A stretch of 50,929 nt of DNA from the NCBI GenBank assembly GCA_022823765.1, contig JAJEHK010000255.1, forward strand, positions 1 to 50,929, written 5' to 3'. Positions 5,568-50,929 of the stretch are shown piece after piece. The notes beneath the pieces were generated by a model, which was not told where the DNA came from, ran no database searches, and worked only from the letters and a program-made list of their open reading frames with translations. Position 1 is the stretch's first letter, and the number at the start of each line of letters is the position of its first letter. A program made the position numbers and the translations under genes. The DNA comes from Alphaproteobacteria bacterium. GTDB lineage: Bacteria > Pseudomonadota > Alphaproteobacteria > SP197.

Positions 5568-6845
5568 TCAGTCTTCGGACGTCTCTCCGGTGGGGGGTGT
5601 CACGCGCAGCTGGACAATCTGGTTGCGTTGGCGCTCAAGCACCTCGAAGCGAAAGTTGTGGAACTCGAAGACCTGTCCGGCATCCGGAATCTGCTGGGCC
5701 TCCTGAATCACCAGGCCGGCGATGGTGATGGCGCCGTCTTCCGGGAGATTCCAGTCGAACTCCCGGTTGAGGTCGCGGATGGTGGCGGCGCCGTTCAGTA
5801 TCAGGGTTCCGTCCTCGCCGATCTTCGCATCGACCTCCGGGACATCGTGCTCATCCTCGATGTCGCCGACGATCTCCTCGAGGATGTCCTCGAGTGTGAC
5901 GACTCCCATGATGCCGCCGTACTGGTCAACGACGACCGCGAAGTGGAGCTGACGCTCGCGGAACACGGTCAGTTGTTCGCTCAGCGACGTGGTGTCCGGC
6001 GCGAACCATGGTTCAGTGGCAACCTCCTTGATGTCGAACACGCCCTTGTCGCGGTGGCGATAGAGTGCACGCGCGAGACTCTTGGCGTGCAGGATGCCGA
6101 CGATGTTGTCGGGATCGTCGCGCCACAGGGGGATGCGTGTGTGGGAGCTCGCCAACGCCGCCTCGATGATGTTCTCCAGAGGCTCGTCGGCATTGATGGT
6201 CTCCATGGAACGACGGTGGGTCATGACTTCGCCGATGACGACGTCCGAGAGATCGAGGACACCGTCGAGCATGGCATGCTGGTCCTTCACCAGTCCGCCT
6301 TCGTGCCGGTAGAGATCGAGGATGCTCCGCAGTTCCTCGTCCGAGGGAATCGTCTCGTCACGGGAATCCCGGGCTCCGGCAAGGCGGAACATGATCTGGA
6401 CCACTCCCTGGAGCGCCCAGGTGAGTGGCTGGGCCAGCCACACGACGCCTCTCATGAAGGGGGCGACGGTGAGGGCGACGAACTCGGCGTTCCTGATGGC
6501 GTAGGTCTTGGGCATGATCTCGGCAAAGATCACCACCACGACGGTCATGGCGGCGATGGCGTAGGCAACGCCGGCCTCGCCCACCAGCGCCGTGAAGACG
6601 TAGGTGGCCATCGATGCCACGGCGATGTTGAAGAGATTGTTCCCGATCAGAATGGCGCTGATCAGGTGTTCGCGGTCCTCCATCAGTGCGGTCGCCCGCG
6701 CCGCCCTTCGATCCCCGGCAAGCCCGAGGCCGTGAATCCTGGACCGATTGGCTGCGGTCAGCGCCGTTTCGGAGCCCGAAAACACGGCCGAAAAGACAAG
6801 AAGGACCACAATCAGGACGAAGTAGACTTCCAGGAGATCAGTCAT
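5568..6845 (-). CDS. HlyC/CorC family transporter (DUF21-CBS pair-CorC_HlyC)
   Basis: 425 aa. N-terminal SGSETALTA DUF21 membrane region, central CBS pair (V.EVMT.R, AVVVDQYGGIMGVVTLEDILEEIVGDIEDE) and a C-terminal transporter-associated domain. Confidence 0.9.
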   Translation of the reverse strand: MTDLLEVYFVLIVVLLVFSAVFSGSETALTAANRSRIHGLGLAGDRRAARATALMEDREHLISAILIGNNLFNIAVASMATYVFTALVGEAGVAYAIAAMTVVVVIFAEIMPKTYAIRNAEFVALTVAPFMRGVVWLAQPLTWALQGVVQIMFRLAGARDSRDETIPSDEELRSILDLYRHEGGLVKDQHAMLDGVLDLSDVVIGEVMTHRRSMETINADEPLENIIEAALASSHTRIPLWRDDPDNIVGILHAKSLARALYRHRDKGVFDIKEVATEPWFAPDTTSLSEQLTVFRERQLHFAVVVDQYGGIMGVVTLEDILEEIVGDIEDEHDVPEVDAKIGEDGTLILNGAATIRDLNREFDWNLPEDGAITIAGLVIQEAQQIPDAGQVFEFHNFRFEVLERQRNQIVQLRVTPPTGETSED

Positions 6846-41487: not shown

Positions 41488-42438
41488 ATGATCCCGGCGC
41501 TCCTCGACTGCGACACCGGCCATGACGACGCCATGGCCATCCTCATGGCCGGAAGACGGCTCGACCTGCGGGGAGTGACCACCGTCTTCGGCAACGCGAC
41601 CGTCGCCGACACCACCGCCAACACCTGCCGCATCCTGGAACTCGCCGGACTCGCCCACGTTCCCGTCGCCGCCGGCGCGGCCGCACCACTGGAAGGCGCC
41701 TTTGTGCATGAAGACGGAGTCCACGGCATGACGGGAATGGATGGCCATGACCTGCCGCCTCCGGCCGGCGGGCCCGTCGATGAACCGGCCGTGGACTTCA
41801 TTGCCCGCAACGCTGCCGCCACCAGGGGCCTCCATCTCGTGGCCACCGGTCCGCTCACCAACATCGCCCGGGTCCTGACGTCATTTCCGGGAACGCGTGC
41901 AGCACTGGCGGGTATCAGCATCATGGGGGGATCGACCGGACAGGGCAACGCCACCCCGGTCGCCGAATACAACATCCAGGCCGATCCGGAAGCCGCCGAC
42001 ATCGTCTTCACCAGCGGTGTTCCGATCCGCATGGTGGGACTCAATGTCACCCGCCAGGTGGCGGCAACGCCGGAGCGGCGATGCTGCCTGAGGTCCCTGG
42101 GAAACCGCACCGGCCACGTCGTGGCCGATCTGCTTGATTTCTTCAGCGACCGGCTCGAGGAGCACTATGGCCTCGCCGGTGCATCGATGCATGATCCCCT
42201 TGCCGTGGCTGCGTTCAGTGATCCCGACATCCTGCGATTCGAGGCCATGGAGGTGAGAATCGAGCGGGAAGGGGCCCATACCAGGGGCATGACTGTGTGC
42301 GATCTTCGCCATCTCTGTCCTCTCACCCTGCGTCGACAGCGCGAACCCCTGGGCTGCCCCAATGCCGAGGTTGCGGTGGCAGTGGACGCCGGTCTCTTCT
42401 GGGAGCGCTTCATCGACGTGGTGGCTGCCTTTCCATGA
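41488..42438 (+). CDS. nucleoside hydrolase (IU-preferring family)
   Basis: The N-terminal LLDCDTGHDDAMAI is the DxDxxxDD fingerprint. 316 aa. Starts 3 nt after the SDR stop. Confidence 0.9.
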   Translation: MIPALLDCDTGHDDAMAILMAGRRLDLRGVTTVFGNATVADTTANTCRILELAGLAHVPVAAGAAAPLEGAFVHEDGVHGMTGMDGHDLPPPAGGPVDEPAVDFIARNAAATRGLHLVATGPLTNIARVLTSFPGTRAALAGISIMGGSTGQGNATPVAEYNIQADPEAADIVFTSGVPIRMVGLNVTRQVAATPERRCCLRSLGNRTGHVVADLLDFFSDRLEEHYGLAGASMHDPLAVAAFSDPDILRFEAMEVRIEREGAHTRGMTVCDLRHLCPLTLRRQREPLGCPNAEVAVAVDAGLFWERFIDVVAAFP

Positions 42439-43586
42439 GAAACCTTCCGGAATTCGACACGGACGAGATGCTGGATGGCCTCGGCGCCTGGGTGCTCGTC
42501 GAGAGCCCCACCAATGTGCCCGAGGGCGTCAATGCCATGATGGATCTCGCCGAAGCCGAGATGGTGTCTCTGGGAGCGGCTATCACCCGGGAACCGGGAG
42601 GCGACGGATACGGGGACGTGCTCGTCGCCCGCGTGGAGGGCGCTGTCGAGGACAAGGGCATCCTGGTTCTGGGCCACCTCGATACCGTGCATGGCGTCGG
42701 CACCCTGGCGGGCCCACTCCCGTTCCGTCGCGACGGAGACCGGCTCTACGGTCCGGGCGTCTACGACATGAAGGGCGGCATGTATGCCGCCTGTTACGCC
42801 ATGAAGCAGCTGTTGCGCGCCGGCCGTACCCCGGGTCTGCCGGTGACCTTCATGTTCATCCCCAACGAGGAGGTCGGCAGCCCGACGACCCGGCAGCGCA
42901 TCGAGGACGAAGCGCGGCGACATCGCTTCGTCCTCGTTCCGGAACCCGCCAAGCAGGGCCGGCTTGTGACCGGACGTCACGGCATCGCGCGCTACATCGT
43001 GACGACCCGCGGGAGACCCTCCCATGCCGGTGCGACCCTCGCCCGGGGTGCCAGCGCCATCCGTGAAATGGCCCATCAGATCCACGCCATCGAGGCGACG
43101 TCGGATCCCGGTTCCGGGACCACGATGAGCGTCGGCATCGTCAACGGCGGCACCTTCGTCAACGTCGTTCCCATCGAGTGCCGTGCCGAGGTTCTGGCGG
43201 TCTTTCCCACCCGCGAGGCCTTCGATTCAATTGCCGCGTTCATGTCCTCCCTGAAGCCGGTCAACACGGATGTCACGATCACCGTGGAGCCCGGACCGGT
43301 GCGGCCCCTCTTCGAGCCGGGAGCGGGGACGCTCGCTCTCTATTCCCGCGCCGAGGAGATCGCGAAATCCATCGGCTTCGTACCGGGCCACGGCAGCTTT
43401 GGCGGAGGGAGTGACGGCAATTTCACCGGTGCACTTGGCATCTCCACACTCGACGGCCTCGGGCTCTGCGGTGACGGCGCCCACACGCACGAAGAACACA
43501 TCCTCGTCTCCTCCCTGGTTCCCAGGGCGCGCCTTCTGGCCGGTCTTCTTGAGAGTCTCGGGGATGCGGAATTCAACGCCCCGTGA
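42435..43586 (+). CDS. M20 family metallopeptidase (carboxypeptidase G2-like)
   Basis: GHLDTV, YGPGVYDMKGG, NEEVGSP and GGSDGN motifs. ATG 42435 overlaps the hydrolase stop (ATGA). Confidence 0.85.
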   Translation: MRNLPEFDTDEMLDGLGAWVLVESPTNVPEGVNAMMDLAEAEMVSLGAAITREPGGDGYGDVLVARVEGAVEDKGILVLGHLDTVHGVGTLAGPLPFRRDGDRLYGPGVYDMKGGMYAACYAMKQLLRAGRTPGLPVTFMFIPNEEVGSPTTRQRIEDEARRHRFVLVPEPAKQGRLVTGRHGIARYIVTTRGRPSHAGATLARGASAIREMAHQIHAIEATSDPGSGTTMSVGIVNGGTFVNVVPIECRAEVLAVFPTREAFDSIAAFMSSLKPVNTDVTITVEPGPVRPLFEPGAGTLALYSRAEEIAKSIGFVPGHGSFGGGSDGNFTGALGISTLDGLGLCGDGAHTHEEHILVSSLVPRARLLAGLLESLGDAEFNAP

Positions 43587-44691
43587 AAGGCAGACCGGTG
43601 ACCTCTCCGTCGCGTGTGCCGTCGGGGGTGGTGACCGCCACCGGCGTTCCCGGATCCCAGGCGCTGCGTTCCATCATGGCAAGGGCGATGTTGGTGGCGA
43701 GGTCGGGCGAGAAGGCCGCCGATGTCACCTGACCGGCCGGTTCGCCGGACCGCAGCACGGGCCACGGTTCGACACAGGCCGGCGCCGCTCTTCCATCGAA
43801 CCTGATGCCGCGGATGATCCTCGCCGGACCGCCCGAGTCGCGGATGCGTTCGAGGGCGTCGCGGCTGATGAACTCCACGGGTGATTCGAGATTCACAAAG
43901 CGGTCGAGACCGCACTCGAAGGGATTGTTCGCGATCGTCATGTCATTGCCGTGCGAGAGCAGGGCCCCCTCGATGCGCTCGATGAGATTCGGGCAGCCCG
44001 GTCCCACACTGAGGTCCCCGCCGGCGGCAAACAGAGCGTCCCACAAGGCCTGCCCGCTGGCCGCATCGTCGATGTAGATCTCGAATCCGCCCTGTTTGGA
44101 CCATCCCGACCGCGCCACCACGAACGAATGGCCGGCAAAGGGCACCACCGCAAAACCGAAGAAGCGGATGTCGCGCACCTGATCGCCGAGCACCCTCGAG
44201 AGGAGGTCGTCGGCCTTGGGCCCCTGTACGGCGATGGGTCCGATGCCCGGCTCGAAGACACGTGCGTCAAGGCCAAGGCCAAGGACAAGGCCCTTGGCCC
44301 ACAGCGCAACGTCGGAGTCGGCGAGGGAGATCCAGAAACGGTCTCCCGCCAGGCGCAGAATGACCGGGTCGTTGATCATGCCCCCCGTCTCGTCCACCAG
44401 GGGCGCATAGGCACACCGGCCCGGCGCCAGGCGGGAGATGTCGCGCGGTGTCATCAACTGCACGAGGCGGGCCGCGTCCGGGCCCACCACCTCGACCTGC
44501 TGTTCGCAGGTGACATCCCAGACCTGAACATGCCGCTTGAGGTGGTGGTAGTCCTCCTCGAGCCCACGGAAGAACGTCGGCAGGAGCATGTGGTTGTAGA
44601 CGGTGAAGCCGCCGACACCCTGTGCCTCGATCCGTGACGAGAATGGTGTACGGCGGGTGCGGCGCGATATCGAGATCACGGGTTCATGCAT
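43573..44691 (-). CDS. aminomethyltransferase (GcvT) family protein, DMSP demethylase DmdA-like
   Basis: RRTRRTPF, TVYNHMLLPT, HVQVWDV, DETGGMINDPV, ARSGWSKQGGFEIY and PNLIERIEGALLSHGNDM resemble DmdA as I recall it more than canonical GcvT. The 3' end overlaps the M20 gene by 14 nt. Confidence 0.65.
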   Translation of the reverse strand: MHEPVISISRRTRRTPFSSRIEAQGVGGFTVYNHMLLPTFFRGLEEDYHHLKRHVQVWDVTCEQQVEVVGPDAARLVQLMTPRDISRLAPGRCAYAPLVDETGGMINDPVILRLAGDRFWISLADSDVALWAKGLVLGLGLDARVFEPGIGPIAVQGPKADDLLSRVLGDQVRDIRFFGFAVVPFAGHSFVVARSGWSKQGGFEIYIDDAASGQALWDALFAAGGDLSVGPGCPNLIERIEGALLSHGNDMTIANNPFECGLDRFVNLESPVEFISRDALERIRDSGGPARIIRGIRFDGRAAPACVEPWPVLRSGEPAGQVTSAAFSPDLATNIALAMMERSAWDPGTPVAVTTPDGTRDGEVTGLPFTGR

Positions 44692-44776
44692 GGTCAGGTT
44701 CCTGGAGACGGAGAAAGCGGGACAATCGTGCTACGCTCGTTGCTCCGTGTATAGTGCCCGGCGAGAGGGACGGCAC

Positions 44777-45418
44777 ATGGTGAAGCTCGACATTCTCCAG
44801 AAGGTCTATGAGTGCAGGGACCTCGACGAACTGCGCGGAATCTATGATTCCTGGGCCGAGACCTACGATTCGACGATCTCCGGGACGATGAGTTACCGCG
44901 GTCACGAGTACATTGTCGATGCCGTGCGTCCCCATCTTGGCGACGATGCGAAAATCCTTGATGCCGGAGCCGGCAGCGGCATGGTCGGGCTGGCGGCGTC
45001 GCTGGCGGGATTCACCCACGTGGACGCCATGGATTTCTCGGCGGGCATGCTGAAGGTTGCGAGGGACCGCGGCGTCTACCGCGAGATCCGTCGCGGCGTT
45101 CTCGGCGAAGCGCTGGACTATCCGGACAACACCTACGATGCCGTTCTCAGTTCGGGTGTCTTCACGCCCGGCCATGCGCCACCGACATCGTTCGACGAGA
45201 TCATCCGCATCGTGAAGCCCGGAGGGCTGGTCTGTTTCACGCTGCGCCACGACCAGACGCCACCGGGATTCATCGAGAAGTTCGATGAACTCGCAAGGGC
45301 CGGATTGTGGCAGCAGGTGCGAGTGAGCGAGCCATTTCAGTCCATGCCGGGGGGCGAACCGGAGATCCGGCACAGGACCTGGCTCTTCCGGGTGACGCCG
45401 GAGCGCCCATCGGCGTGA
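44777..45418 (+). CDS. class I SAM-dependent methyltransferase
   Basis: Motif I ILDAGAGSGMVG, post-I D.S..ML, motif II YDAVLSSGVF. ATG 44777 follows GAGAGGGA. Confidence 0.8.
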   Translation: MVKLDILQKVYECRDLDELRGIYDSWAETYDSTISGTMSYRGHEYIVDAVRPHLGDDAKILDAGAGSGMVGLAASLAGFTHVDAMDFSAGMLKVARDRGVYREIRRGVLGEALDYPDNTYDAVLSSGVFTPGHAPPTSFDEIIRIVKPGGLVCFTLRHDQTPPGFIEKFDELARAGLWQQVRVSEPFQSMPGGEPEIRHRTWLFRVTPERPSA

Positions 45419-46089
45419 CGAACCCGGCGCCCGGACGCCCGGTTCGCATCTGGGATCGCCCGACGCGGGTGTTCCACTGGGTCCTCGTCGTCCTCTTCGT
45501 CGTTTGCTATGTCAGCGGCGACCGCGGCAGGTTCGATATCCACATCTTGGCCGGCCAGGCTCTGCTGATCCTCGTCGTGTCGCGGATCATCTGGGGGTTC
45601 GTGGGCAGCGATACCGCCCGGTTTCGCCGCTTCCTGCGGCCCCCGGGCGAGATCATGGCCCATATCCGGTCCCTTGGTGAGCGCCGGCCTGGCCATGACA
45701 GCGGTCACAATCCCCTTGGCGGCCTCTCCGTTGTCCTGATGCTGTTCGTTCTCGTCGTCCACACGGGATCCGGGCTCTTTGCGGTGGATGTCGATGGATG
45801 GAACGAGGGACCACTTTCGCATGTCGTGAGCTACGAAGCGGCTCGCAACGCCTCAGGCGTTCACGCTGTCACGGTCGACATCCTGCTCGTGCTTGTCGCA
45901 CTCCACGTTGCCGCTGTCGGATTCCACTGGCTCTACAAGCGCGACAACCTCGTCCTTCCCATGGTGACCGGTCGCAAGCACCTTCCTCCGGAGCACGATG
46001 TCCCGCGTCTCGCCCCGGATCTCCTGGCTCTTGTCACGCTCGCCGTTGCCGCTTCGGTCGTGCTCGGGCTACTGGAGATCGCCGGATAG
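45415..46089 (+). CDS. cytochrome b561-type membrane cytochrome (Ni/Fe-hydrogenase b-type cytochrome family)
   Basis: VRIWDRPTRVFHWVLVVLFVVCYVSG... four helices with conserved His. GTG 45415 overlaps the methyltransferase stop (GTGA). Confidence 0.75.
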   Translation: MTNPAPGRPVRIWDRPTRVFHWVLVVLFVVCYVSGDRGRFDIHILAGQALLILVVSRIIWGFVGSDTARFRRFLRPPGEIMAHIRSLGERRPGHDSGHNPLGGLSVVLMLFVLVVHTGSGLFAVDVDGWNEGPLSHVVSYEAARNASGVHAVTVDILLVLVALHVAAVGFHWLYKRDNLVLPMVTGRKHLPPEHDVPRLAPDLLALVTLAVAASVVLGLLEIAG

Positions 46090-46093
46090 AGGT

Positions 46094-46567
46094 TCAGTGG
46101 TCCTCGGCGCGGAAGACCGAGTGACACCCGCCACACCCGTCGCGTCCAAGAGCCTGGAAGGCCGCAGCCTGCGAGTCGCCATCTCCCGAAGCCAGCGCCG
46201 TCTCGAGCATGGCCGCCCGCTCTCCCAGGAGCTGTGCGGCCATCTCGAACTCAGTCCAGTTTTCCCAGATGGCATCGAGAGCGCCGGTTCGGGGCAGGGC
46301 ATCCACGCCGGTCCCCGGAGGAAAGAGCCGTGGAATGGCAGATGCGGCGTCCTTCAGGACACCGGTTGCCGCCAGCGCCTCCTCCGCATCGTTGCGCCCG
46401 GAGAGGAAGCCCTTGATGGTCCGCATGGAGATCCCAAGTTCCTTCATGAACACCTGGCGCTCGTCGCTCAGCCTCTCGGCCTCCTCGAGACTGACGACGT
46501 CGTCTCCTGACCAGGCCACGGATCCCAGCATGAAAGAGACAACCACCGTCACGATGGCGGTACGCAT
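46094..46567 (-). CDS. cytochrome c' (class II c-type cytochrome)
   Basis: Signal peptide MRTAIVTVVVSFMLGSVAWS, helical body, and a single C-terminal haem site CGGCH close to the end. ATG 46567 follows GGAGGAA. Confidence 0.8.
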   Translation of the reverse strand: MRTAIVTVVVSFMLGSVAWSGDDVVSLEEAERLSDERQVFMKELGISMRTIKGFLSGRNDAEEALAATGVLKDAASAIPRLFPPGTGVDALPRTGALDAIWENWTEFEMAAQLLGERAAMLETALASGDGDSQAAAFQALGRDGCGGCHSVFRAEDH

Positions 46568-46843
46568 GGCCGGTTCCTCCCTTCTTGGATGTCCAAGAGA
46601 CTGGAACAGGTTGCCCGGAGCCTGCAAGTCCCGGACTGCAGTCGGGACGGAATTCGGCCGCTGGCGGTCCACCACGGAGGTCTTGCACGCGGGCCCGGGA
46701 CGAAGGCGAGACTTGACCCGGCGTCCCGATTGCGTGAATCGTGGGGTCTACCAGGGCCACGGCGAAATGAACAAGGCGGCCGACACGATCCCGGGTCATG
46801 GGTCAAGACCACCGGCAAATCGGCGAGGCAGGGAGGTGCAGCA

Positions 46844-48301
46844 ATGAGCAGGGGCACCACTGTCTTCGCCCTGATCGTTTCCGTGCTGCTCATCGCTGCA
46901 GCCGGCGTGCTCAACATGCTGGCAAGGCAGGGCGGCGAAGCGGTGCTCGCCGATGCTGCCGTGATGGCAACGGAGATTCGCGGTGGCGTGGCGGAGTCAG
47001 GGGCGTCGGCCGTCGACGGGTCTCTGGAGACGGCATCTCGACTGGTGGCAACCCTCGAGTCCATTCCCGACCTTGCGGACGACATCGCGGGCACTGCGGT
47101 CGCGTTGAGAGAGGGGCTGCAACAGAGAAGGCTCGCGATCGATGCCATCCTTGATGCGGATGCGGCGCTCACGCAAGCGATCGATGCCTGGAGGTCGGCG
47201 GCTGAATCGGTGGCTGGAGAAGCCGGAACGAGGGCACAGGAACTGACCGGGCTCGTGGAGGACATGGACCGATACCTTGCCGGGACCGGGTCCGCTCCGA
47301 CCCTTGATGCCGTGCGGGCCCACAACGACGTGACCCTTGTTGCGGCAGCAGACAGGCTGCTGACCGACAAGCGCACCCTTGACGAGCTGCATCAGGAGCT
47401 GGCTGTCGACAGGGTGGCCGGCGTTGCCGAGCAGCTTGTCATGTCCCTGGAGAACGAGCGCGCCCGGCGGGCGCTTGTCGTGCGCAACTATGACGACGGT
47501 ACGGTTGCCGCCCTCGGCGCCCTGGCGCTTTTCTGGGTTCTGCTTGGCATCCGTGGGCGTCGCCGCAGCGAGCCGGTTCAACAGACTGCGGACCCGGGGC
47601 GGGGAAGGCTGTTCATCCGCGGTACGGCGGCGGCAGTGACGGTGCGGGCCCAACGTCTCGCTTCGCACACCAATGCTCTCAGACAGTCCCGCCAGAGACT
47701 TGGAAACGCCATCATGGAGGCCGGGCTCGACCGGTCGCTCAATGACGATGCGCCCCTTCACCGGGAGGTCAAGGCGATGGACGTTCATCTCGCCACCCTG
47801 CGCGACGAAACCGGTGAGCTGTCGGCGCTGGGCAAGCGTCTGTGGACTCTCGCCGGGGAGGCGGCGCCGTCGCCGTCGGTCAGCATCAACGCGTGCATCA
47901 GGGAAGCCCTCGAGGCGATCAGGGCAGGCCACCGTATGCCCGTCATGACGGAACTTGCCGATGTCGGCCATGTCAGGGGCGTGGCATCCGACATTGTCCT
48001 GGCCCTGACAGCCCTGATCGAGAGAATTCTCACCGCCTCCCGGGAATCGGGATTGGGGCACAGCGCCGTTCGCGTCTTCACCACGGCCGGTGATGACCAG
48101 GTGCATGTCACCATCACCGGAGGGGCTCCCCTTCCGCGGTTCACGGAACACACGTTCAGGCCGTCCGGCGCCTCCCACGAACTGGCGCTGGCCGTCGCTC
48201 TTCTCAGGCGCCATGGCGGCAGTGTGACCCTGGGTTCATCCACTGCCGGGGAAGCCTCGGCACGCATATCCCTTGCTGCCGCATCGGGAGACCAGACATG
48301 A
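46844..48301 (+). CDS. two-TM membrane protein with Ala-rich helical periplasmic region and a degenerate C-terminal histidine-kinase-like ATPase domain
   Basis: MSRGTTVFALIVSVLLIAAAGVLNML (TM1), VAALGALALFWVLLGI (TM2). The C-terminal about 130 aa has HATPase_c-like layout (..VLALTALIERIL.., VHVTITGGAP.., LALAVALLRRHGGSVTL). I see no H-box and no DxGxG G1 box. ATG 46844 follows GGGAGG. Confidence 0.6.
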   Translation: MSRGTTVFALIVSVLLIAAAGVLNMLARQGGEAVLADAAVMATEIRGGVAESGASAVDGSLETASRLVATLESIPDLADDIAGTAVALREGLQQRRLAIDAILDADAALTQAIDAWRSAAESVAGEAGTRAQELTGLVEDMDRYLAGTGSAPTLDAVRAHNDVTLVAAADRLLTDKRTLDELHQELAVDRVAGVAEQLVMSLENERARRALVVRNYDDGTVAALGALALFWVLLGIRGRRRSEPVQQTADPGRGRLFIRGTAAAVTVRAQRLASHTNALRQSRQRLGNAIMEAGLDRSLNDDAPLHREVKAMDVHLATLRDETGELSALGKRLWTLAGEAAPSPSVSINACIREALEAIRAGHRMPVMTELADVGHVRGVASDIVLALTALIERILTASRESGLGHSAVRVFTTAGDDQVHVTITGGAPLPRFTEHTFRPSGASHELALAVALLRRHGGSVTLGSSTAGEASARISLAAASGDQT

Positions 48302-50289
48302 AGGCGTTGCGTTTTCGGGTTCGCAACTATCGCAACATCGAGGACAGCGGCTGGGTAGCACTCGATCCGGTCACGGTCCTTGTCGGGCGCAACGAGTCGG
48401 GCAAGACCTCCCTTCTGAAGGCACTCAACAAGTTCAATCCGGGCACGGCGGAAACCTATGATGCCCAGCGCGAGTTTCCACGTGACCGCTACACGCGCGA
48501 CTACATCCTTGCCGGTTCAACGGGGGCTGAGTGGCCTGTCTGTTCCATCGAGTTCGAGATTCCGGAACAGCAGAAGAGCGATATCGCGACCCTGCTGGGC
48601 CCGGCCCGGGCAGTGCCCGAGACGGTTACCGTCACGCGTCACTACGACGGCTCCCTCGGTTTTTCCTACATGCCGCAGATCGGAGCCAAACCGGCACAGC
48701 CAGCCCCTCTCATGGAGATCCTCGAGGGTCTGGCACTTGGAGACGACTCGCCGCGCCTGGCAGCATGGTCCAGCGAGTGGTACGACCGGTTCGCCGGGCT
48801 TGATGACGTCGCGAGCGCCACCGGCCGAACCCTGCTCACCGAAATCGACGAAGAGATTGCGGGACTTGATGATGAACGGCTCAGTGCTCTTGGCGCTGTC
48901 GTCACCGCCATGCTGCGGATGCCCTTCGGGAGCAGGGTGGTCGATCATGTCAATGCCCTGGTGGAACGTGAACTGCCGCGTCTCGTCTACTTCGAAAACT
49001 ACGGCGTGCTCGACAGCGCCATCTGGTTGCCGGAGATGTTCAGGGGCCTTGAACGCGAGGAACCGGAACCGCGTTTCAGAACGGCGCTTGCGCTTTTCCG
49101 TCATGCGGGCCTCGATCCCCGGGACATCGCGGAACTGGGTGCCACGGACAACAGGGCATCGGGTGAGGCGATGCAGCGCCAGATGGAGGAGCGGGCCATC
49201 CGGCTCAATGCAGCGTCGGTCGACATCAGCCGTCGCTGTGCCGAGCTGTGGTCACAACGGCGCCATCGCATCCGCTATCATGTTGACGGAGATTACTTCC
49301 GCATCAGGGTCGCTGACGATTCGCTGGAGGATGTGGAGATAGAGCTGGAATCCCGCGGCAAGGGCTTCCAGTGGTTCCTCTCCTTCTTCCTCGTCTTTGC
49401 CGCGGAGTCCGAGGGCGGCATGGGCGATGCCATCATATTGCTGGACGAGCCCGGTCTCAGCCTTCACCCGACGGCACAACGCGAACTGCTGGTGTTCTTC
49501 GAGCGTCTGTCCGAACAGAACCAGGTCATCTACACGACTCATTCGCCGTTCCTTATCGACGGCGATCACCTTGACCGGGTGCGTCCGGTGTTCGAGGACG
49601 ATACGGGGCATGCCCGCATCCTCAAGGGTTCATGGCCGGCCCATCCGGAAACGGTCTTCGCACTCAAGGCGGCAGCCGGGTATGCGATGTTCGATTCCCT
49701 GTCGGAGCAGGGTCGGTCTCTGCTTGTCGAACATGTCAGCGATGCCTGCTATCTGGAGGCGCTGTCGCGGCACTGCGCCCGGACCGGCAGGAGTGCGCTT
49801 GACGGATCCGTCGAAGTGGTGCCCTGTGGCGGTGCGGCGGTGTGCGGTTACCTGGCATCGCTTCTCATGGCCGAGAACCGTCGTCCTCTCATTCTCTTCG
49901 ACGGCACCGACACCGCGCGGCTTCGACGGCATGGACTGGTGAGGGAACTCCTTGATGAGGGAGACAGCTCGATGGTTCTCCTCGACGAGGCCCTTGGCTG
50001 GTCCGGACATGACGTGTGCCTCGAGGATCTGTTCGGAGAGAGCCTCATCCTCGAAGGTCTCGCAAGCGCGACCGGAATCCGCCTTTCGCTGGGTGAAGAT
50101 GGACATCAGGCCAGCCTCGTCGGCCGCATCGAGAGCGCGGCGGAGGCGGCGAACATCACGCTCCCCCGTTCCTGGCGGCTGTCGACGGCCCTGGCGGTGA
50201 CGTCGTCACAGGACTCCCCGCCGGATGACGTCCTCGATTCGGCATCGCTTCTCTTCACGCAACTTGCCGGCGACGGCAAGGGACGGTGA
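48298..50289 (+). CDS. OLD-family / PARIS-like nuclease: ABC-type ATPase fused to a Toprim (DUF4435-like) domain
   Basis: Walker A LVGRNESGKTS (aa 28-38), signature-like ESRGKGFQWFLSF, Walker B AIILLDEPGLSLHP, H-loop YTTHSP. C-terminal LLVEHVSD (Toprim Glu), VVPCGG, ILFDGTD (DxD) and CLEDLF. The ATG overlaps the upstream stop (ATGA at 48298-48301). Confidence 0.75.
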   Translation: MKALRFRVRNYRNIEDSGWVALDPVTVLVGRNESGKTSLLKALNKFNPGTAETYDAQREFPRDRYTRDYILAGSTGAEWPVCSIEFEIPEQQKSDIATLLGPARAVPETVTVTRHYDGSLGFSYMPQIGAKPAQPAPLMEILEGLALGDDSPRLAAWSSEWYDRFAGLDDVASATGRTLLTEIDEEIAGLDDERLSALGAVVTAMLRMPFGSRVVDHVNALVERELPRLVYFENYGVLDSAIWLPEMFRGLEREEPEPRFRTALALFRHAGLDPRDIAELGATDNRASGEAMQRQMEERAIRLNAASVDISRRCAELWSQRRHRIRYHVDGDYFRIRVADDSLEDVEIELESRGKGFQWFLSFFLVFAAESEGGMGDAIILLDEPGLSLHPTAQRELLVFFERLSEQNQVIYTTHSPFLIDGDHLDRVRPVFEDDTGHARILKGSWPAHPETVFALKAAAGYAMFDSLSEQGRSLLVEHVSDACYLEALSRHCARTGRSALDGSVEVVPCGGAAVCGYLASLLMAENRRPLILFDGTDTARLRRHGLVRELLDEGDSSMVLLDEALGWSGHDVCLEDLFGESLILEGLASATGIRLSLGEDGHQASLVGRIESAAEAANITLPRSWRLSTALAVTSSQDSPPDDVLDSASLLFTQLAGDGKGR

Positions 50290-50929
50290 ACGGCAGATTT
50301 GCCGTCTACTACACGCCCGAGGCCGCCTCGGAACTGGCGCGATTCGCCGCCAGCTGGCTGGGAGAGGAGGCCGGCTGTGTTCCCGGCATCCCGGAAGACC
50401 TCCGCCGTGACGTCGTCCGCATCCCCCGAGCCTATGGATTCCATGCGACGCTGAAGGCCCCGTTCATCCTTGCCCCGGGCACCACCGCGGATGCTCTCGC
50501 CTCGGCCACCGCCGCCCTCGCGGCGAGCTTCACCGCATTCCGGGCGCCGCCTCTGGACCTCGCCAGTGTCGACGGTTTTCTCGCTCTGGTGCTTCGTGAT
50601 CCCTGCCCGGACATGATGGACCTGTCGGAGGCGTGCGTGACGGCACTCGACCACTTTCGTGCGCCGCTGACTGACAGGGAAAGGGAACGCCGTCGATCGC
50701 AATGCCTCACGGCACGCCAGGAAGTGTTGCTCGACCGCTGGGGCTATCCCTTTGTTCTCGATGAATTCCGCTTTCACATGACGCTGACCCGGCGTCTCGA
50801 TGAGGGCCTGCGTGCACGTATCGCCGCCCTCCTGGAACGCAGGATAGAAAGCTTCATCGGGCGGGAGTGGCGCGTCGACTCCATCTCCCTCGTCCACCAG
50901 GCGTCACATGACGAGCGCTTCGTCGTGAA
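50286..50929 (+). CDS. 2H phosphoesterase superfamily protein (DUF1045 / phosphonate-metabolism-associated type), 3' end outside window
   Basis: My own translation from GTG 50286 (overlaps the upstream TGA as GTGA): VNGRFAVYYTPEAASELARFAASWLG...YGFHATLKAPF...FRFHMTLTRRL.... Two H-x-T-L motifs define 2H enzymes. The frame stays open to the window end, so it is absent from the ORF track. Confidence 0.7.
   Translation, partial: MNGRFAVYYTPEAASELARFAASWLGEEAGCVPGIPEDLRRDVVRIPRAYGFHATLKAPFILAPGTTADALASATAALAASFTAFRAPPLDLASVDGFLALVLRDPCPDMMDLSEACVTALDHFRAPLTDRERERRRSQCLTARQEVLLDRWGYPFVLDEFRFHMTLTRRLDEGLRARIAALLERRIESFIGREWRVDSISLVHQASHDERFVV

What the first reader, a model, noticed from the sequence alone, without database searches (positions are those of the whole stretch)
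46844..50929. Translationally coupled trio: membrane HK-like pseudo-sensor, fused ABC-ATPase/Toprim (OLD/PARIS-like) nuclease and 2H phosphoesterase
Three same-strand genes are joined by overlapping stop/start codons (ATGA at 48298-48301, GTGA at 50286-50289), which implies co-expression.
- **Middle gene:** it has every ABC-ATPase motif plus a C-terminal Toprim set (E in LLVEHVSD, DxD in ILFDGTD, LEDLF). This is the architecture of P2 Old, Gabija GajA and single-chain PARIS (AriA-AriB) immunity proteins.
- **Missing partners:** the known partners of those systems (UvrD-like helicase, reverse transcriptase, separate DUF4435 protein) are absent.
- **First gene:** a two-TM protein whose cytoplasmic end looks like a histidine-kinase ATPase fold, but without an H-box or G1 box.
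- **Third gene:** a 2H phosphoesterase (two HxTL motifs), a fold that acts on cyclic or 2',3'-phosphate nucleotide and RNA ends.

I do not recognise a membrane sensor plus OLD nuclease plus 2H enzyme combination as a named defence system. It could be a new envelope-triggered abortive-infection or RNA-repair-coupled module. Caveat: DUF1045 proteins usually accompany C-P lyase (phn) genes, and the window ends inside this gene.
Basis: partly seen in the sequence, partly recalled or inferred. Interest (0 to 1): 0.75.

Follow-up and report, generated by a model that had tools for sequence, protein, structure and literature searches.

The report
Lineage-fixed OLD nuclease operon with pseudo-kinase
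Three overlapping genes are real, but only the middle one (an OLD-family ATPase-nuclease normally found in anti-phage islands) is a known defence gene. Its two neighbours travel with it only in one group of uncultured, apparently sponge-associated bacteria, so a new three-gene immune system is not supported.

Summary
Three same-strand genes are joined by ATGA (48298-48301) and GTGA (50286-50289) overlaps.

- **Gene 2** is an OLD-family ABC-ATPase/Toprim protein. Its best solved-structure match, by sequence and by fold, is the Class 1 OLD of Thermus scotoductus.
- **Gene 1** is a two-TM histidine-kinase-like protein with degenerate N, G1 and G2 boxes and no conserved His.
- **Gene 3** is an intact DUF1045 2H phosphoesterase.

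- The trio occurs only in one clade of uncultured Alphaproteobacteria, always at the same housekeeping locus.
- About 68 loci with 36-51%-identical gene 2 homologs, from more than ten phyla, never carry gene 1 or DUF1045. They sit next to hsdS, methylases, DarT and SIR2.
- One clade genome keeps genes 1 and 2 but has lost DUF1045.
- Outside the clade, DUF1045 ends C-P lyase (phn) operons.
- Four-base overlaps are the norm in this genome.

One new point: every clade member replaces two predicted Toprim metal ligands. E574 becomes C/R/S. The ATPase motifs stay intact and both domains are under purifying selection.

Best reading: a defence-derived OLD gene fixed in the chromosome, probably working with the pseudo-kinase, with DUF1045 as a passenger.

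The parts
46844..48301 (+). Gene 1 (485 aa): lineage-specific membrane pseudo-histidine-kinase
   Evidence: No Pfam, PADLOC or NCBIfam hit on its own sequence. Only 24 protein clusters in the 5.8-billion set and 56 hits among 1.84 billion representatives. A profile matches the FixL, ZraS, DivL and VanS catalytic domains. Foldseek on the model hits DHp+CA structures at E about 3e-4, although the model's mean pLDDT is only 60. omega is 0.22-0.29 against close relatives.
46859..46924 (+). Gene 1 TM helix 1 (residues about 6-27)
   Evidence: Hydrophobic stretch TVFALIVSVLLIAAAGVLNMLA, conserved across the clade. Helical in the model.
46925..47494 (+). Gene 1 periplasmic all-helical domain (residues about 28-217), probably a diverged DAHL-type sensor domain
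   Evidence: The best-modelled part of gene 1, with pLDDT 72-90. The gene 1 profile matches the N-terminal regions of proteins that carry Pfam DAHL PF19443. A direct Pfam hit is only marginal (E = 0.42). The domain is variable and is partly deleted in L004.
47495..47551 (+). Gene 1 TM helix 2 (residues about 218-236)
   Evidence: GTVAALGALALFWVLLGIR. W231 is invariant even in distant DAHL-HATPase relatives.
47594..47851 (+). Gene 1 cytoplasmic helical hairpin (DHp-like, residues about 251-336) without a conserved His
   Evidence: Helices 251-292 and 304-336 in the model. H275 in LASHTNALR becomes Q, R or L in orthologs. No His column is conserved in relatives.
47876..48283 (+). Gene 1 degenerate HATPase_c domain (residues about 345-480)
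   Evidence: Aligned with FixL and with the DAHL kinases, the N-box Asn is R392, the G1 Asp is absent and the G2 box is deleted. The 41%-identical ortholog in L003 keeps DNAIDA and TDNGN and passes Pfam HATPase_c.
48298..50289 (+). Gene 2 (663 aa): OLD-family ABC-ATPase/Toprim protein
   Evidence: AAA_15 at 6e-26 and AAA_21 at 3e-20. PADLOC gives partial AriA, Old and GajA hits. The best PDB sequence hit is 6P74, Ts OLD, at 3e-13. The Foldseek top hit is 6p74 at 9e-13, followed by GajA. Many homologs carry a (weak) PF20469 OLD-like_TOPRIM hit. omega is 0.12-0.15 against close relatives.
48385..48408 (+). Gene 2 Walker A (GRNESGKT, K36)
   Evidence: Invariant in 184 family members.
49432..49449 (+). 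Gene 2 Walker B (IILLDE, D383-E384); the H-loop H415 lies at 49540-49542
   Evidence: Conserved in all 15 clade members, and in all but one (a single D383N) of the 169 other family members. Aligns with the P2 Old Walker B and H-loop region.
49729..49743 (+). Gene 2 Toprim Glu motif (E478-H-V-S-D482)
   Evidence: Aligns with Ts OLD E377 and D381 and with P2 Old E398 and E402. These are metal A and metal B ligands according to PMC7049728.
49900..49911 (+). Gene 2 altered DxD site: D535-G-T537-D538
   Evidence: hhalign to P2 Old places D535 on D453 and T537 on D455. Position 537 is Asp in 163 of 169 non-clade homologs and T, S or A in all 15 clade members.
50017..50028 (+). Gene 2 second acidic motif: C574-L-E576-D577 (family consensus E-I-E-D)
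   Evidence: The motif matches P2 Old D541-I-E543. Position 574 is Glu in 158 of 169 non-clade homologs and C, R or S in all 15 clade members. E576 is conserved in all but one of the 184 family members. The mapping to the metal B ligands rests on motif similarity and is an inference.
50286..50929 (+). Gene 3: DUF1045 2H phosphoesterase, cut by the window end (225 aa in L001)
   Evidence: PF06299 at 2.7e-54. TIGR03223 scores 234.6 bits, just under its cutoff, because the query is truncated. The HxT motifs at 50442-50450 and 50775-50783 are invariant in clade and phn-linked homologs. omega is 0.28-0.41.

Best explanation
**What gene 2 is.** Gene 2 is an OLD-family protein. [quoted passage not shown]

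**Where it came from.** It descends from a family that moves horizontally between phyla and normally sits in restriction-modification and defence islands. In one lineage of uncultured Alphaproteobacteria, apparently sponge-associated (inferred from MAG isolate names), it became fixed at a housekeeping chromosomal locus and has since been inherited vertically under purifying selection.

**How it probably works there (inferred).**
- It is co-transcribed with, and probably works together with, a lineage-specific two-TM pseudo-histidine-kinase (gene 1).
- Gene 1 can no longer bind ATP or autophosphorylate in the canonical way. It most plausibly acts as a membrane-anchored scaffold or signal input that gates the ATPase-nuclease.
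- The Toprim site is remodelled in this lineage. The second Asp of DxD and one metal B-type acidic residue are replaced. The likely activity is therefore attenuated or altered, for example nicking rather than processive degradation.

**Gene 3.** The DUF1045 2H phosphoesterase is an intact enzyme displaced from its usual C-P lyase context. It is an operon passenger, not a component.

**Shown versus inferred.**
- Shown: domain identities, distribution, synteny, the substitutions and the selection pattern.
- Inferred: partnership of genes 1 and 2, a defence role and reduced nuclease activity.
For: **Identity of gene 2.**

**Mobile, defence-island origin.**
- Homologs at 36-51% identity occur in Latescibacterota, Acidobacteriota, Gemmatimonadota, Planctomycetota, Nitrospirota, Chloroflexota, Bacillota and Pseudomonadota.
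- Of 31 upstream neighbours, 9 are HsdS. Others are DUF499, Eco57I, XhoI and methyltransferases.
- Downstream neighbours are heterogeneous: SLFN_AlbA_2, DarT, SIR2_2, DUF1156, and a UvrD helicase only once.

**Fixation in the lineage.**
- The same flanking genes surround the trio in genomes whose gene 2 is 62-96% identical: cytochrome b561 and cytochrome c' upstream; Cupin_7 (preceded in some genomes by acyl-CoA dehydrogenase) and, where the contig extends far enough, glutamate synthase downstream.
- The rest of the window is housekeeping metabolism with no mobile-element or phn genes.
- GC content is roughly uniform, about 0.60-0.68.

**Selection.** omega is about 0.12-0.15 for gene 2 in both domains and 0.22-0.29 for gene 1 against close relatives. 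Both rise in the two deepest comparisons, where dS exceeds 1.

**Link between genes 1 and 2.**
- Gene 1 exists only beside gene 2. Just 4 representatives score E < 1e-30 among 1.84 billion, and the three I could place (P0143, P0265, P0267) are clade orthologs.
- The stop/start junction stays within one nucleotide even at 40% gene 1 identity.
- L013 keeps the pair after losing DUF1045.

**Remodelled Toprim site.**: none of 15 clade members has Asp at position 537, against 163 of 169 other family members. None of 15 has Glu at 574, against 158 of 169. P2 Old D455A abolishes killing (PMC7049728).

**DUF1045 as passenger.**, plus PMC3266647 (78 of 223 C-P lyase operons carry DUF1045).
Against: - No independent occurrence of the gene 1-gene 2 pair exists outside the syntenic clade, so their linkage cannot be separated from simple vertical co-inheritance.
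- No 'empty site' outgroup was found. One search returned only another trio-bearing contig.
- No interaction, expression or phenotype data exist.
- Thr and Cys can still take part in metal or water coordination. Metal B ligands also vary among active OLDs (Ser in Ts, Asn in Vc; PMC12392090). Nuclease attenuation is therefore uncertain.
- DUF1045 is retained with a conserved overlap in most clade genomes and is under purifying selection, which is also compatible with a real role in the operon.
Confidence: 0.4

Rival explanations
1. Gene 2 is a self-sufficient single-gene Class 1 OLD nuclease. Both neighbours (pseudo-kinase and DUF1045) are functionally unrelated genes that share a compact operon with it.
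For: - The wider family has no conserved partner.
- Class 1 OLDs are defined as single genes (PMC10568477).
- Four-base overlaps join genes of apparently unrelated function elsewhere on the same contig.
- Co-occurrence is confined to a syntenic clade.
Against: - Gene 1 is a pseudo-enzyme found nowhere without gene 2.
- Its junction with gene 2 is preserved across dS > 1.
- The clade-specific Toprim changes coincide with the appearance of the partner.
Confidence: 0.3
2. All three genes form one new defence or abortive-infection module: a membrane sensor triggers the OLD nuclease, and the 2H enzyme processes cyclic-phosphate nucleic-acid or nucleotide products.
For: - Overlapping genes are conserved in about 15 clade genomes.
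- All three genes are under purifying selection.
- DUF1045 lies outside its normal phn context here (versus 35, 74).
- The literature search found no described OLD+2H system.
Against: - L013 retains genes 1 and 2 but lacks DUF1045.
- L017 may carry a frameshifted DUF1045.
- The trio is never seen in a second genomic context or in another lineage.
- The locus is housekeeping, not a defence island.
- Two-metal Toprim cleavage would be expected to give 3'-OH and 5'-phosphate ends, not the cyclic phosphates a 2H enzyme acts on (general knowledge of the fold).
- The DUF1045 active site and sequence are indistinguishable from phn-linked homologs.
Confidence: 0.1
3. Gene 2 has been domesticated for a non-defence housekeeping role, such as ATP-driven DNA binding, repair or chromosome maintenance. 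Its nuclease chemistry is weakened or lost.
For: - It has a stable vertical position in the core genome among metabolic genes.
- Two predicted metal ligands are lost in every clade member, and P0007 also lacks D535, while the ATPase motifs are intact.
- Purifying selection is strong.
Against: - Four of the six predicted ligands are fully retained in the clade (E478, D482 and E576 in all 15 members; D535 in 14).
- The Toprim domain is as constrained as the ATPase domain (omega 0.14-0.16).
- No repair or replication genes are adjacent.
Confidence: 0.15

Closest known systems
Class 1 OLD family nucleases (P2 Old; Thermus scotoductus OLD, PDB 6P74; Vibrio cholerae Vc OLD)
   Same: [quoted passage not shown]
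- No helicase, RT or AriB partner.
- 6P74 is the best solved-structure hit by both sequence and fold.
- The Toprim Glu/Asp pair and the first Asp of DxD align with the catalytic residues.
   Different: - Longer: 663 aa against 528 (Ts) and 586 (P2), with about 85 helical residues after the last acidic motif.
- No full-length PADLOC Old match.
- The second DxD Asp is Thr and the D541-equivalent is Cys.
- It is translationally coupled to two other genes and fixed in a core-genome locus.
Gabija GajA (Class 2 OLD)
   Same: ATPase-Toprim architecture, and the second-best fold match. The gene 2 model shows helices after the Toprim core, and Class 2 OLDs carry an extra helical domain (PMC6755086).
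   Different: No UvrD-like GajB is adjacent in the window or in clade loci. Only 1 of 32 distant homologs has a UvrD neighbour.
PARIS (AriA/AriB, Class 4 OLD) including fused AriAB
   Same: The ABC ATPase region gives the best PADLOC scores (AriA, 2.4e-26).
   Different: Those hits cover only ATPase parts of the protein (best stretches within residues 251-435). There is no DUF4435 (AriB-type Toprim) hit. Homologs carry PF20469 OLD-like Toprim instead.
DAHL-domain / HATPase_c membrane sensor proteins (remote relatives of gene 1)
   Same: The same order of parts: TM, periplasmic all-helical domain, TM, helical hairpin, GHKL ATPase domain. The gene 1 profile detects them at E = 1e-24 to 1e-10.
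   Different: Those proteins keep the N, G1, F and G2 boxes. Gene 1 has lost them. The one whose neighbourhood I examined (P0268, locus L092) is not next to an OLD gene.
DUF1045 / TIGR03223 accessory protein of C-P lyase (phn) operons
   Same: Gene 3 is a typical member, with both HxT motifs invariant.
   Different: The locus holds no phn genes. Homologs at 46-50% identity follow phnM or an HD gene, next to phnN and phnCDE.

Membership tests
OLD family nuclease (general) | N-terminal ABC-type ATPase with Walker A Lys, Walker B Asp-Glu and H-loop His | tested here: met
   K36, D383-E384 and H415 are conserved in all but one of 184 family members. Pfam AAA_15 and AAA_21 hits. Alignment to the P2 Old and Ts OLD motifs.
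OLD family nuclease (general) | C-terminal Toprim domain with the catalytic Glu | tested here: met
   E478 and D482 align with Ts E377 and D381 and with P2 E398 and E402. The Toprim region is modelled at pLDDT 80-93. Full-length Foldseek top hits are 6p74 and GajA. The C-terminal region alone finds no PDB hit by sequence.
OLD family nuclease (general) | Toprim DxD motif (both Asp residues, metal A ligands) | tested here: not met
   The window has D535-G-T537. T537 aligns with P2 D455. 163 of 169 non-clade homologs have Asp there, against none of 15 clade members.
OLD family nuclease (general) | Metal-dependent nuclease and ATPase activity | not testable with these tools
   Needs purified protein.
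Class 1 OLD | Single gene without a dedicated partner | tested here: inconclusive
   The wider family has no conserved neighbour. In the window's clade, two genes are always translationally coupled to gene 2.
Class 2 OLD (Gabija) | [quoted passage not shown] | tested here: not met
   The downstream gene is DUF1045, then Cupin_7 or acyl-CoA dehydrogenase.
Class 3 OLD (retron) | Adjacent reverse transcriptase and msr/msd non-coding RNA | tested here: not met
   No RT among the called neighbours. No Rfam hit in 45500-50929 at E <= 0.1.
Class 4 OLD (PARIS) | AriA ATPase plus AriB (DUF4435 Toprim), separate or fused | tested here: not met
   The PADLOC AriA and AriAB hits cover only ATPase parts of the protein. 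No DUF4435 Pfam hit at E <= 0.1.
Sensor histidine kinase (gene 1) | DHp helix with a conserved phospho-acceptor His (H-box) | tested here: not met
   No HisKA hit. H275 is replaced by Q, R or L in orthologs. No His column is conserved.
Sensor histidine kinase (gene 1) | HATPase_c fold | tested here: met
   Profile hit to the FixL CA domain at 2.3e-5. Orthologs pass PF02518 at 4e-11. Foldseek hits DHp+CA structures, on a low-confidence model.
Sensor histidine kinase (gene 1) | ATP-binding N, G1 and G2 boxes | tested here: not met
   The N-box Asn is R392, the G1 Asp is absent and the G2 box is deleted, relative to FixL and the DAHL-HATPase relatives.
2H phosphoesterase / DUF1045 (gene 3) | Two HxT/S motifs and a match to PF06299 | tested here: met
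   PF06299 at 2.7e-54. H53-A-T55 and H164-M-T166 are invariant.
C-P lyase (phn) accessory DUF1045 | Location in or beside a phn operon | tested here: not met
   No phn genes in the window or in clade loci. Whether a phn cluster lies elsewhere in these genomes was not testable.

The most novel reading that the evidence does not exclude
Genes 1 and 2, possibly with DUF1045, form a previously undescribed, vertically inherited immune or surveillance module. A membrane-embedded pseudo-histidine-kinase with a DAHL-like periplasmic domain senses an envelope or periplasmic cue, such as phage adsorption or DNA entry. It then licenses an OLD-type ATPase whose Toprim site has been retuned to depend on that partner. 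This would be an OLD 'class' defined by a membrane sensor.
Probability: 0.12. Interest if true: 0.7.

Novelty: new variant of a known kind. Interest (0 to 1): 0.35.

Why it matters
- Class 1 OLD nucleases are the least understood OLD class, and how they are activated is unknown.
- A lineage in which an OLD protein is permanently paired with a membrane pseudo-kinase and carries a retuned metal site would give a natural handle on OLD regulation. It would also be an example of a mobile defence gene becoming a fixed chromosomal gene in symbionts.
- As the evidence stands, this is a narrow, untested lineage-specific operon rather than a new widespread system.
- The DUF1045 part mainly shows that this phn accessory gene can persist outside phn clusters.

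Tried and rejected
- **Gene 1 with distant OLD homologs?** The 489-aa gene that overlaps a 49%-identical OLD homolog in L005 is an HsdS subunit, not a gene 1 relative.
- **DUF1045 or gene 1 near any of about 68 distant homologs?** None found. The only hit is a weak HATPase_c match about 5 kb away in L040, judged unrelated.
- **PDB hit for the Toprim region alone:** none by sequence. I mapped the catalytic residues through the full-length profile and hhalign to P2 Old.
- **Outgroup with an empty site:** the metagenome scan with the flanking cytochrome c' returned only one more trio-bearing contig.
- **Internal promoters, terminators or ncRNA:** nothing above chance, and no Rfam hit.
- **Foreign-DNA signature:** GC content is roughly uniform and gene 2 is only slightly lower.
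- **Literature on OLD+2H or on DAHL:** nothing relevant.
- **Technical failures:** a first MAFFT --auto run timed out and was repeated with faster settings. One paper reading failed on a term that was too short.

Full report
**1. Observation**

The ORF list and the raw sequence confirm three co-directional genes.
- Gene 1 runs 46844-48301. Its ATG is preceded by GGGAGG.
- Gene 2 runs 48298-50289.
- Gene 3 starts at GTG 50286 and runs off the window.
- The ATGA (48298-48301) and GTGA (50286-50289) overlaps are exactly as reported.

A second contig of the same organism (L001, with 100%-identical gene 1 and gene 2 proteins) extends 815 bp further.
- It shows that gene 3 is 225 aa.
- Two tiny ORFs and a Cupin_7 gene follow it, not phn genes.

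On that contig, 5 of 10 same-strand junctions are 4-bp overlaps.
- These include nucleoside hydrolase/M20 peptidase and methyltransferase/cytochrome b561.
- The overlaps therefore argue for co-transcription, not for shared function.

No promoter, terminator or Rfam hit above chance lies inside the trio.

**2. Gene 2**

Family and structure evidence:
- Pfam gives AAA_15 and AAA_21.
- PADLOC gives partial hits to AriA, Old, GajA and PtuA, almost all confined to the ATPase domain.
- A profile of 19 homologs finds Thermus scotoductus OLD (6P74) as the best solved relative, at E = 3e-13. That alignment places E478 and D482 on the Ts OLD metal ligands E377 and D381 (ligand roles from PMC7049728).
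- The AlphaFold model has mean pLDDT 71, with the Toprim region at 80-93. Its top Foldseek hits are 6p74 and then GajA.
- Many homologs carry a (weak) hit to Pfam PF20469, OLD-like_TOPRIM.

The OLD-type ATPase-Toprim call is therefore correct. The 'single-chain PARIS' idea is not: there is no DUF4435 hit, and the AriA and AriAB matches cover only ATPase parts of the protein.

**3. A correction and a new point: the Toprim site**

- hhalign against P2 Old (probability 94.7%) aligns D535 with D453 and T537 with D455.
- The next acidic motif is C574-L-E576-D. It matches P2 D541-I-E543 by pattern.

I tabulated these positions in 184 non-identical family members:

| Position | 169 non-clade members | 15 clade members |
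|---|---|---|
| 537 | Asp in 163 | T, S or A in all 15 |
| 574 | Glu in 158 | C, R or S in all 15 |

- One clade member (P0007) also lacks D535.
- Walker A, Walker B and the H-loop are conserved in both groups (a single D383N in a non-clade member).
- In P2 Old, D455A abolishes host killing (PMC7049728).
- In Vc OLD, a non-canonical metal B ligand has been proposed to limit the enzyme to nicking (PMC12392090).

Attenuated or altered nuclease chemistry is thus a reasonable inference, but it is not shown.

**4. Gene 1**

- It has no hit in Pfam, PADLOC or NCBIfam.
- It has only 24 clusters in the 5.8-billion-protein set.
- It has only 56 hits among 1.84 billion representatives. Four score below 1e-30; three of these (P0143, P0265, P0267) are recognisably clade orthologs and the fourth (P0266, a 315-aa fragment) was not placed.
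- An ortholog profile matches histidine-kinase catalytic domains (FixL at 2.3e-5, plus ZraS, DivL and VanS).
- The 41%-identical ortholog passes PF02518.
- The low-confidence model shows TM, periplasmic helical bundle, TM, helical hairpin and an alpha/beta domain. It hits DHp+CA structures.
- Relative to FixL and to the remote relatives, the window protein has Arg for the N-box Asn, no G1 Asp and a deleted G2 box. No His is conserved in the hairpin.
- The remote relatives carry a Pfam DAHL periplasmic domain plus an intact HATPase_c. The one whose neighbourhood I examined is not next to an OLD gene.

**5. Gene 3**

- It is a DUF1045 member (2.7e-54). The TIGR03223 score is just under its cutoff only because the query is truncated.
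- Both HxT motifs are invariant in clade and non-clade homologs.
- Outside the clade, a 50%-identical homolog ends a phnF-phnGHIJKLM-HD operon next to phnN and phnCDE.
- A 46%-identical homolog follows a PhnM-like amidohydrolase beside a phosphonate transporter.
- This agrees with the literature: 78 of 223 C-P lyase operons carry DUF1045 (PMC3266647).

**6. Distribution**

Inside the clade:
- The trio is found in L001-L004, L009-L012, L014-L018, L088-L089 and L095 (some of these loci are the same genome reached by two routes). L008 is cut inside gene 2, and L013 lacks gene 3.
- All are uncultured Alphaproteobacteria MAGs. Several isolate names suggest sponge hosts, but I did not verify this.
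- Gene 2 identity across them is 62-96%.
- The genomic slot is always the same: after cytochrome b561 and cytochrome c', and before Cupin_7 (with or without acyl-CoA dehydrogenase) and, where the contig extends far enough, glutamate synthase.
- The remaining 38 kb of the window encodes ordinary metabolism (accA, aroK/aroB, TctA/TctC and others). It holds no phn, mobile-element or defence genes.
- GC content is roughly uniform.

Outside the clade:
- Gene 2 homologs at 36-51% identity occur in more than ten phyla.
- None of about 68 such loci carries a gene 1 or DUF1045 relative next to the ATPase gene.
- Upstream neighbours are HsdS in 9 of 31 cases, often with the same ATGA overlap. Others are DUF499, Eco57I, XhoI and methyltransferases.
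- Downstream neighbours are heterogeneous defence-island genes.

Exceptions within the clade:
- L013 keeps genes 1 and 2 but has lost DUF1045, together with acyl-CoA dehydrogenase and Cupin_7.
- L017 shows a frameshifted DUF1045 and L016 a frameshifted gene 2. Either could be an assembly error.

**7. Selection**

I computed Nei-Gojobori estimates against eight clade relatives.

| Gene or region | omega, six closer relatives | omega, two deepest (dS > 1) |
|---|---|---|
| Gene 2, whole | 0.12-0.15 | 0.19-0.24 |
| Gene 2, ATPase part | 0.10-0.15 | 0.16-0.22 |
| Gene 2, Toprim part | 0.14-0.16 | 0.24-0.27 |
| Gene 1 | 0.22-0.29 | 0.44-0.46 |
| Gene 3 | 0.28-0.41 | 0.31-0.42 |

dS reaches above 1 in the deepest comparisons, so those estimates are less reliable. 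All three genes are maintained and none looks like a decaying pseudogene.

**8. Interpretation**

- Gene 2 is a member of a mobile, defence-island OLD family of stand-alone, Class 1-type context. In one lineage it has become a fixed chromosomal gene with a remodelled Toprim site.
- Gene 1 is a lineage-specific pseudo-kinase that exists only beside gene 2. A functional pair is plausible, but it rests on one evolutionary event.
- DUF1045 is most economically an operon passenger displaced from phn.
- I could not find an empty-site outgroup. I also could not test for a phn cluster elsewhere in these genomes.

**9. Verdict**

- Novelty: a new variant of a known kind, namely a Class 1-like OLD with a clade-specific pseudo-kinase partner and an altered DxD.
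- Interest is moderate to low. The unit is restricted to one lineage and no evidence yet separates functional coupling from co-inheritance.

Noticed in passing
L016 6001-7993; L017 7989-8640; L013 7992-8238: Within the clade, one genome has a frameshift in the OLD gene near residue 100 and another has a frameshift in DUF1045 near residue 70-76. L013 has deleted DUF1045, acyl-CoA dehydrogenase and Cupin_7, so that the GATase gene follows the OLD gene directly. I could not distinguish real decay from long-read assembly error.
   Followed up: partly
P0268-P0288 (e.g. L092 6001-7728): The remote relatives of gene 1 form a family of membrane proteins with a DAHL periplasmic domain and an intact HATPase_c domain. 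They have no Pfam HisKA hit and no conserved His in the intervening helical hairpin. They may be a His-less kinase-like family.
   Followed up: partly
L005, L020, L026, L028, L031, L081 (upstream ORF ends at 6004 in most; at 8004 in L005): OLD homologs at 40-50% identity often lie immediately downstream of a type I R-M specificity gene (hsdS), with the same ATGA overlap. HsdS is the upstream neighbour in 9 of 31 loci.
   Followed up: partly
L075 249-5037; L084 6001-9604: In two loci the match to the 2-kb OLD gene spans 4.8 kb and 3.6 kb. This suggests that an inserted element interrupts the gene.
   Followed up: no
L038, L040, L046; P0018, P0092: Some family members carry C-terminal extensions of about 60-130 aa beyond the family's usual C-terminus. 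In P0018 and P0092 the extension contains a shared 'EDDPDLL(R/G)LLL' motif of unknown role.
   Followed up: no
window 41488-43586 and 44603-46089 (L001 2022-4120 and 5311-6623): Gene pairs of apparently unrelated function also overlap by 4 bp: nucleoside hydrolase with M20 peptidase, and methyltransferase with cytochrome b561. Such overlaps are the default packing in this genome.
   Followed up: yes
window 1-38000: The rest of the window is ordinary core metabolism: xanthine-dehydrogenase-type molybdoenzyme, accA, shikimate kinase/DHQ synthase, TctA/TctC, AMP-binding ligases and a DMF-amidase-like gene. It holds no mobile elements or defence genes.
   Followed up: partly
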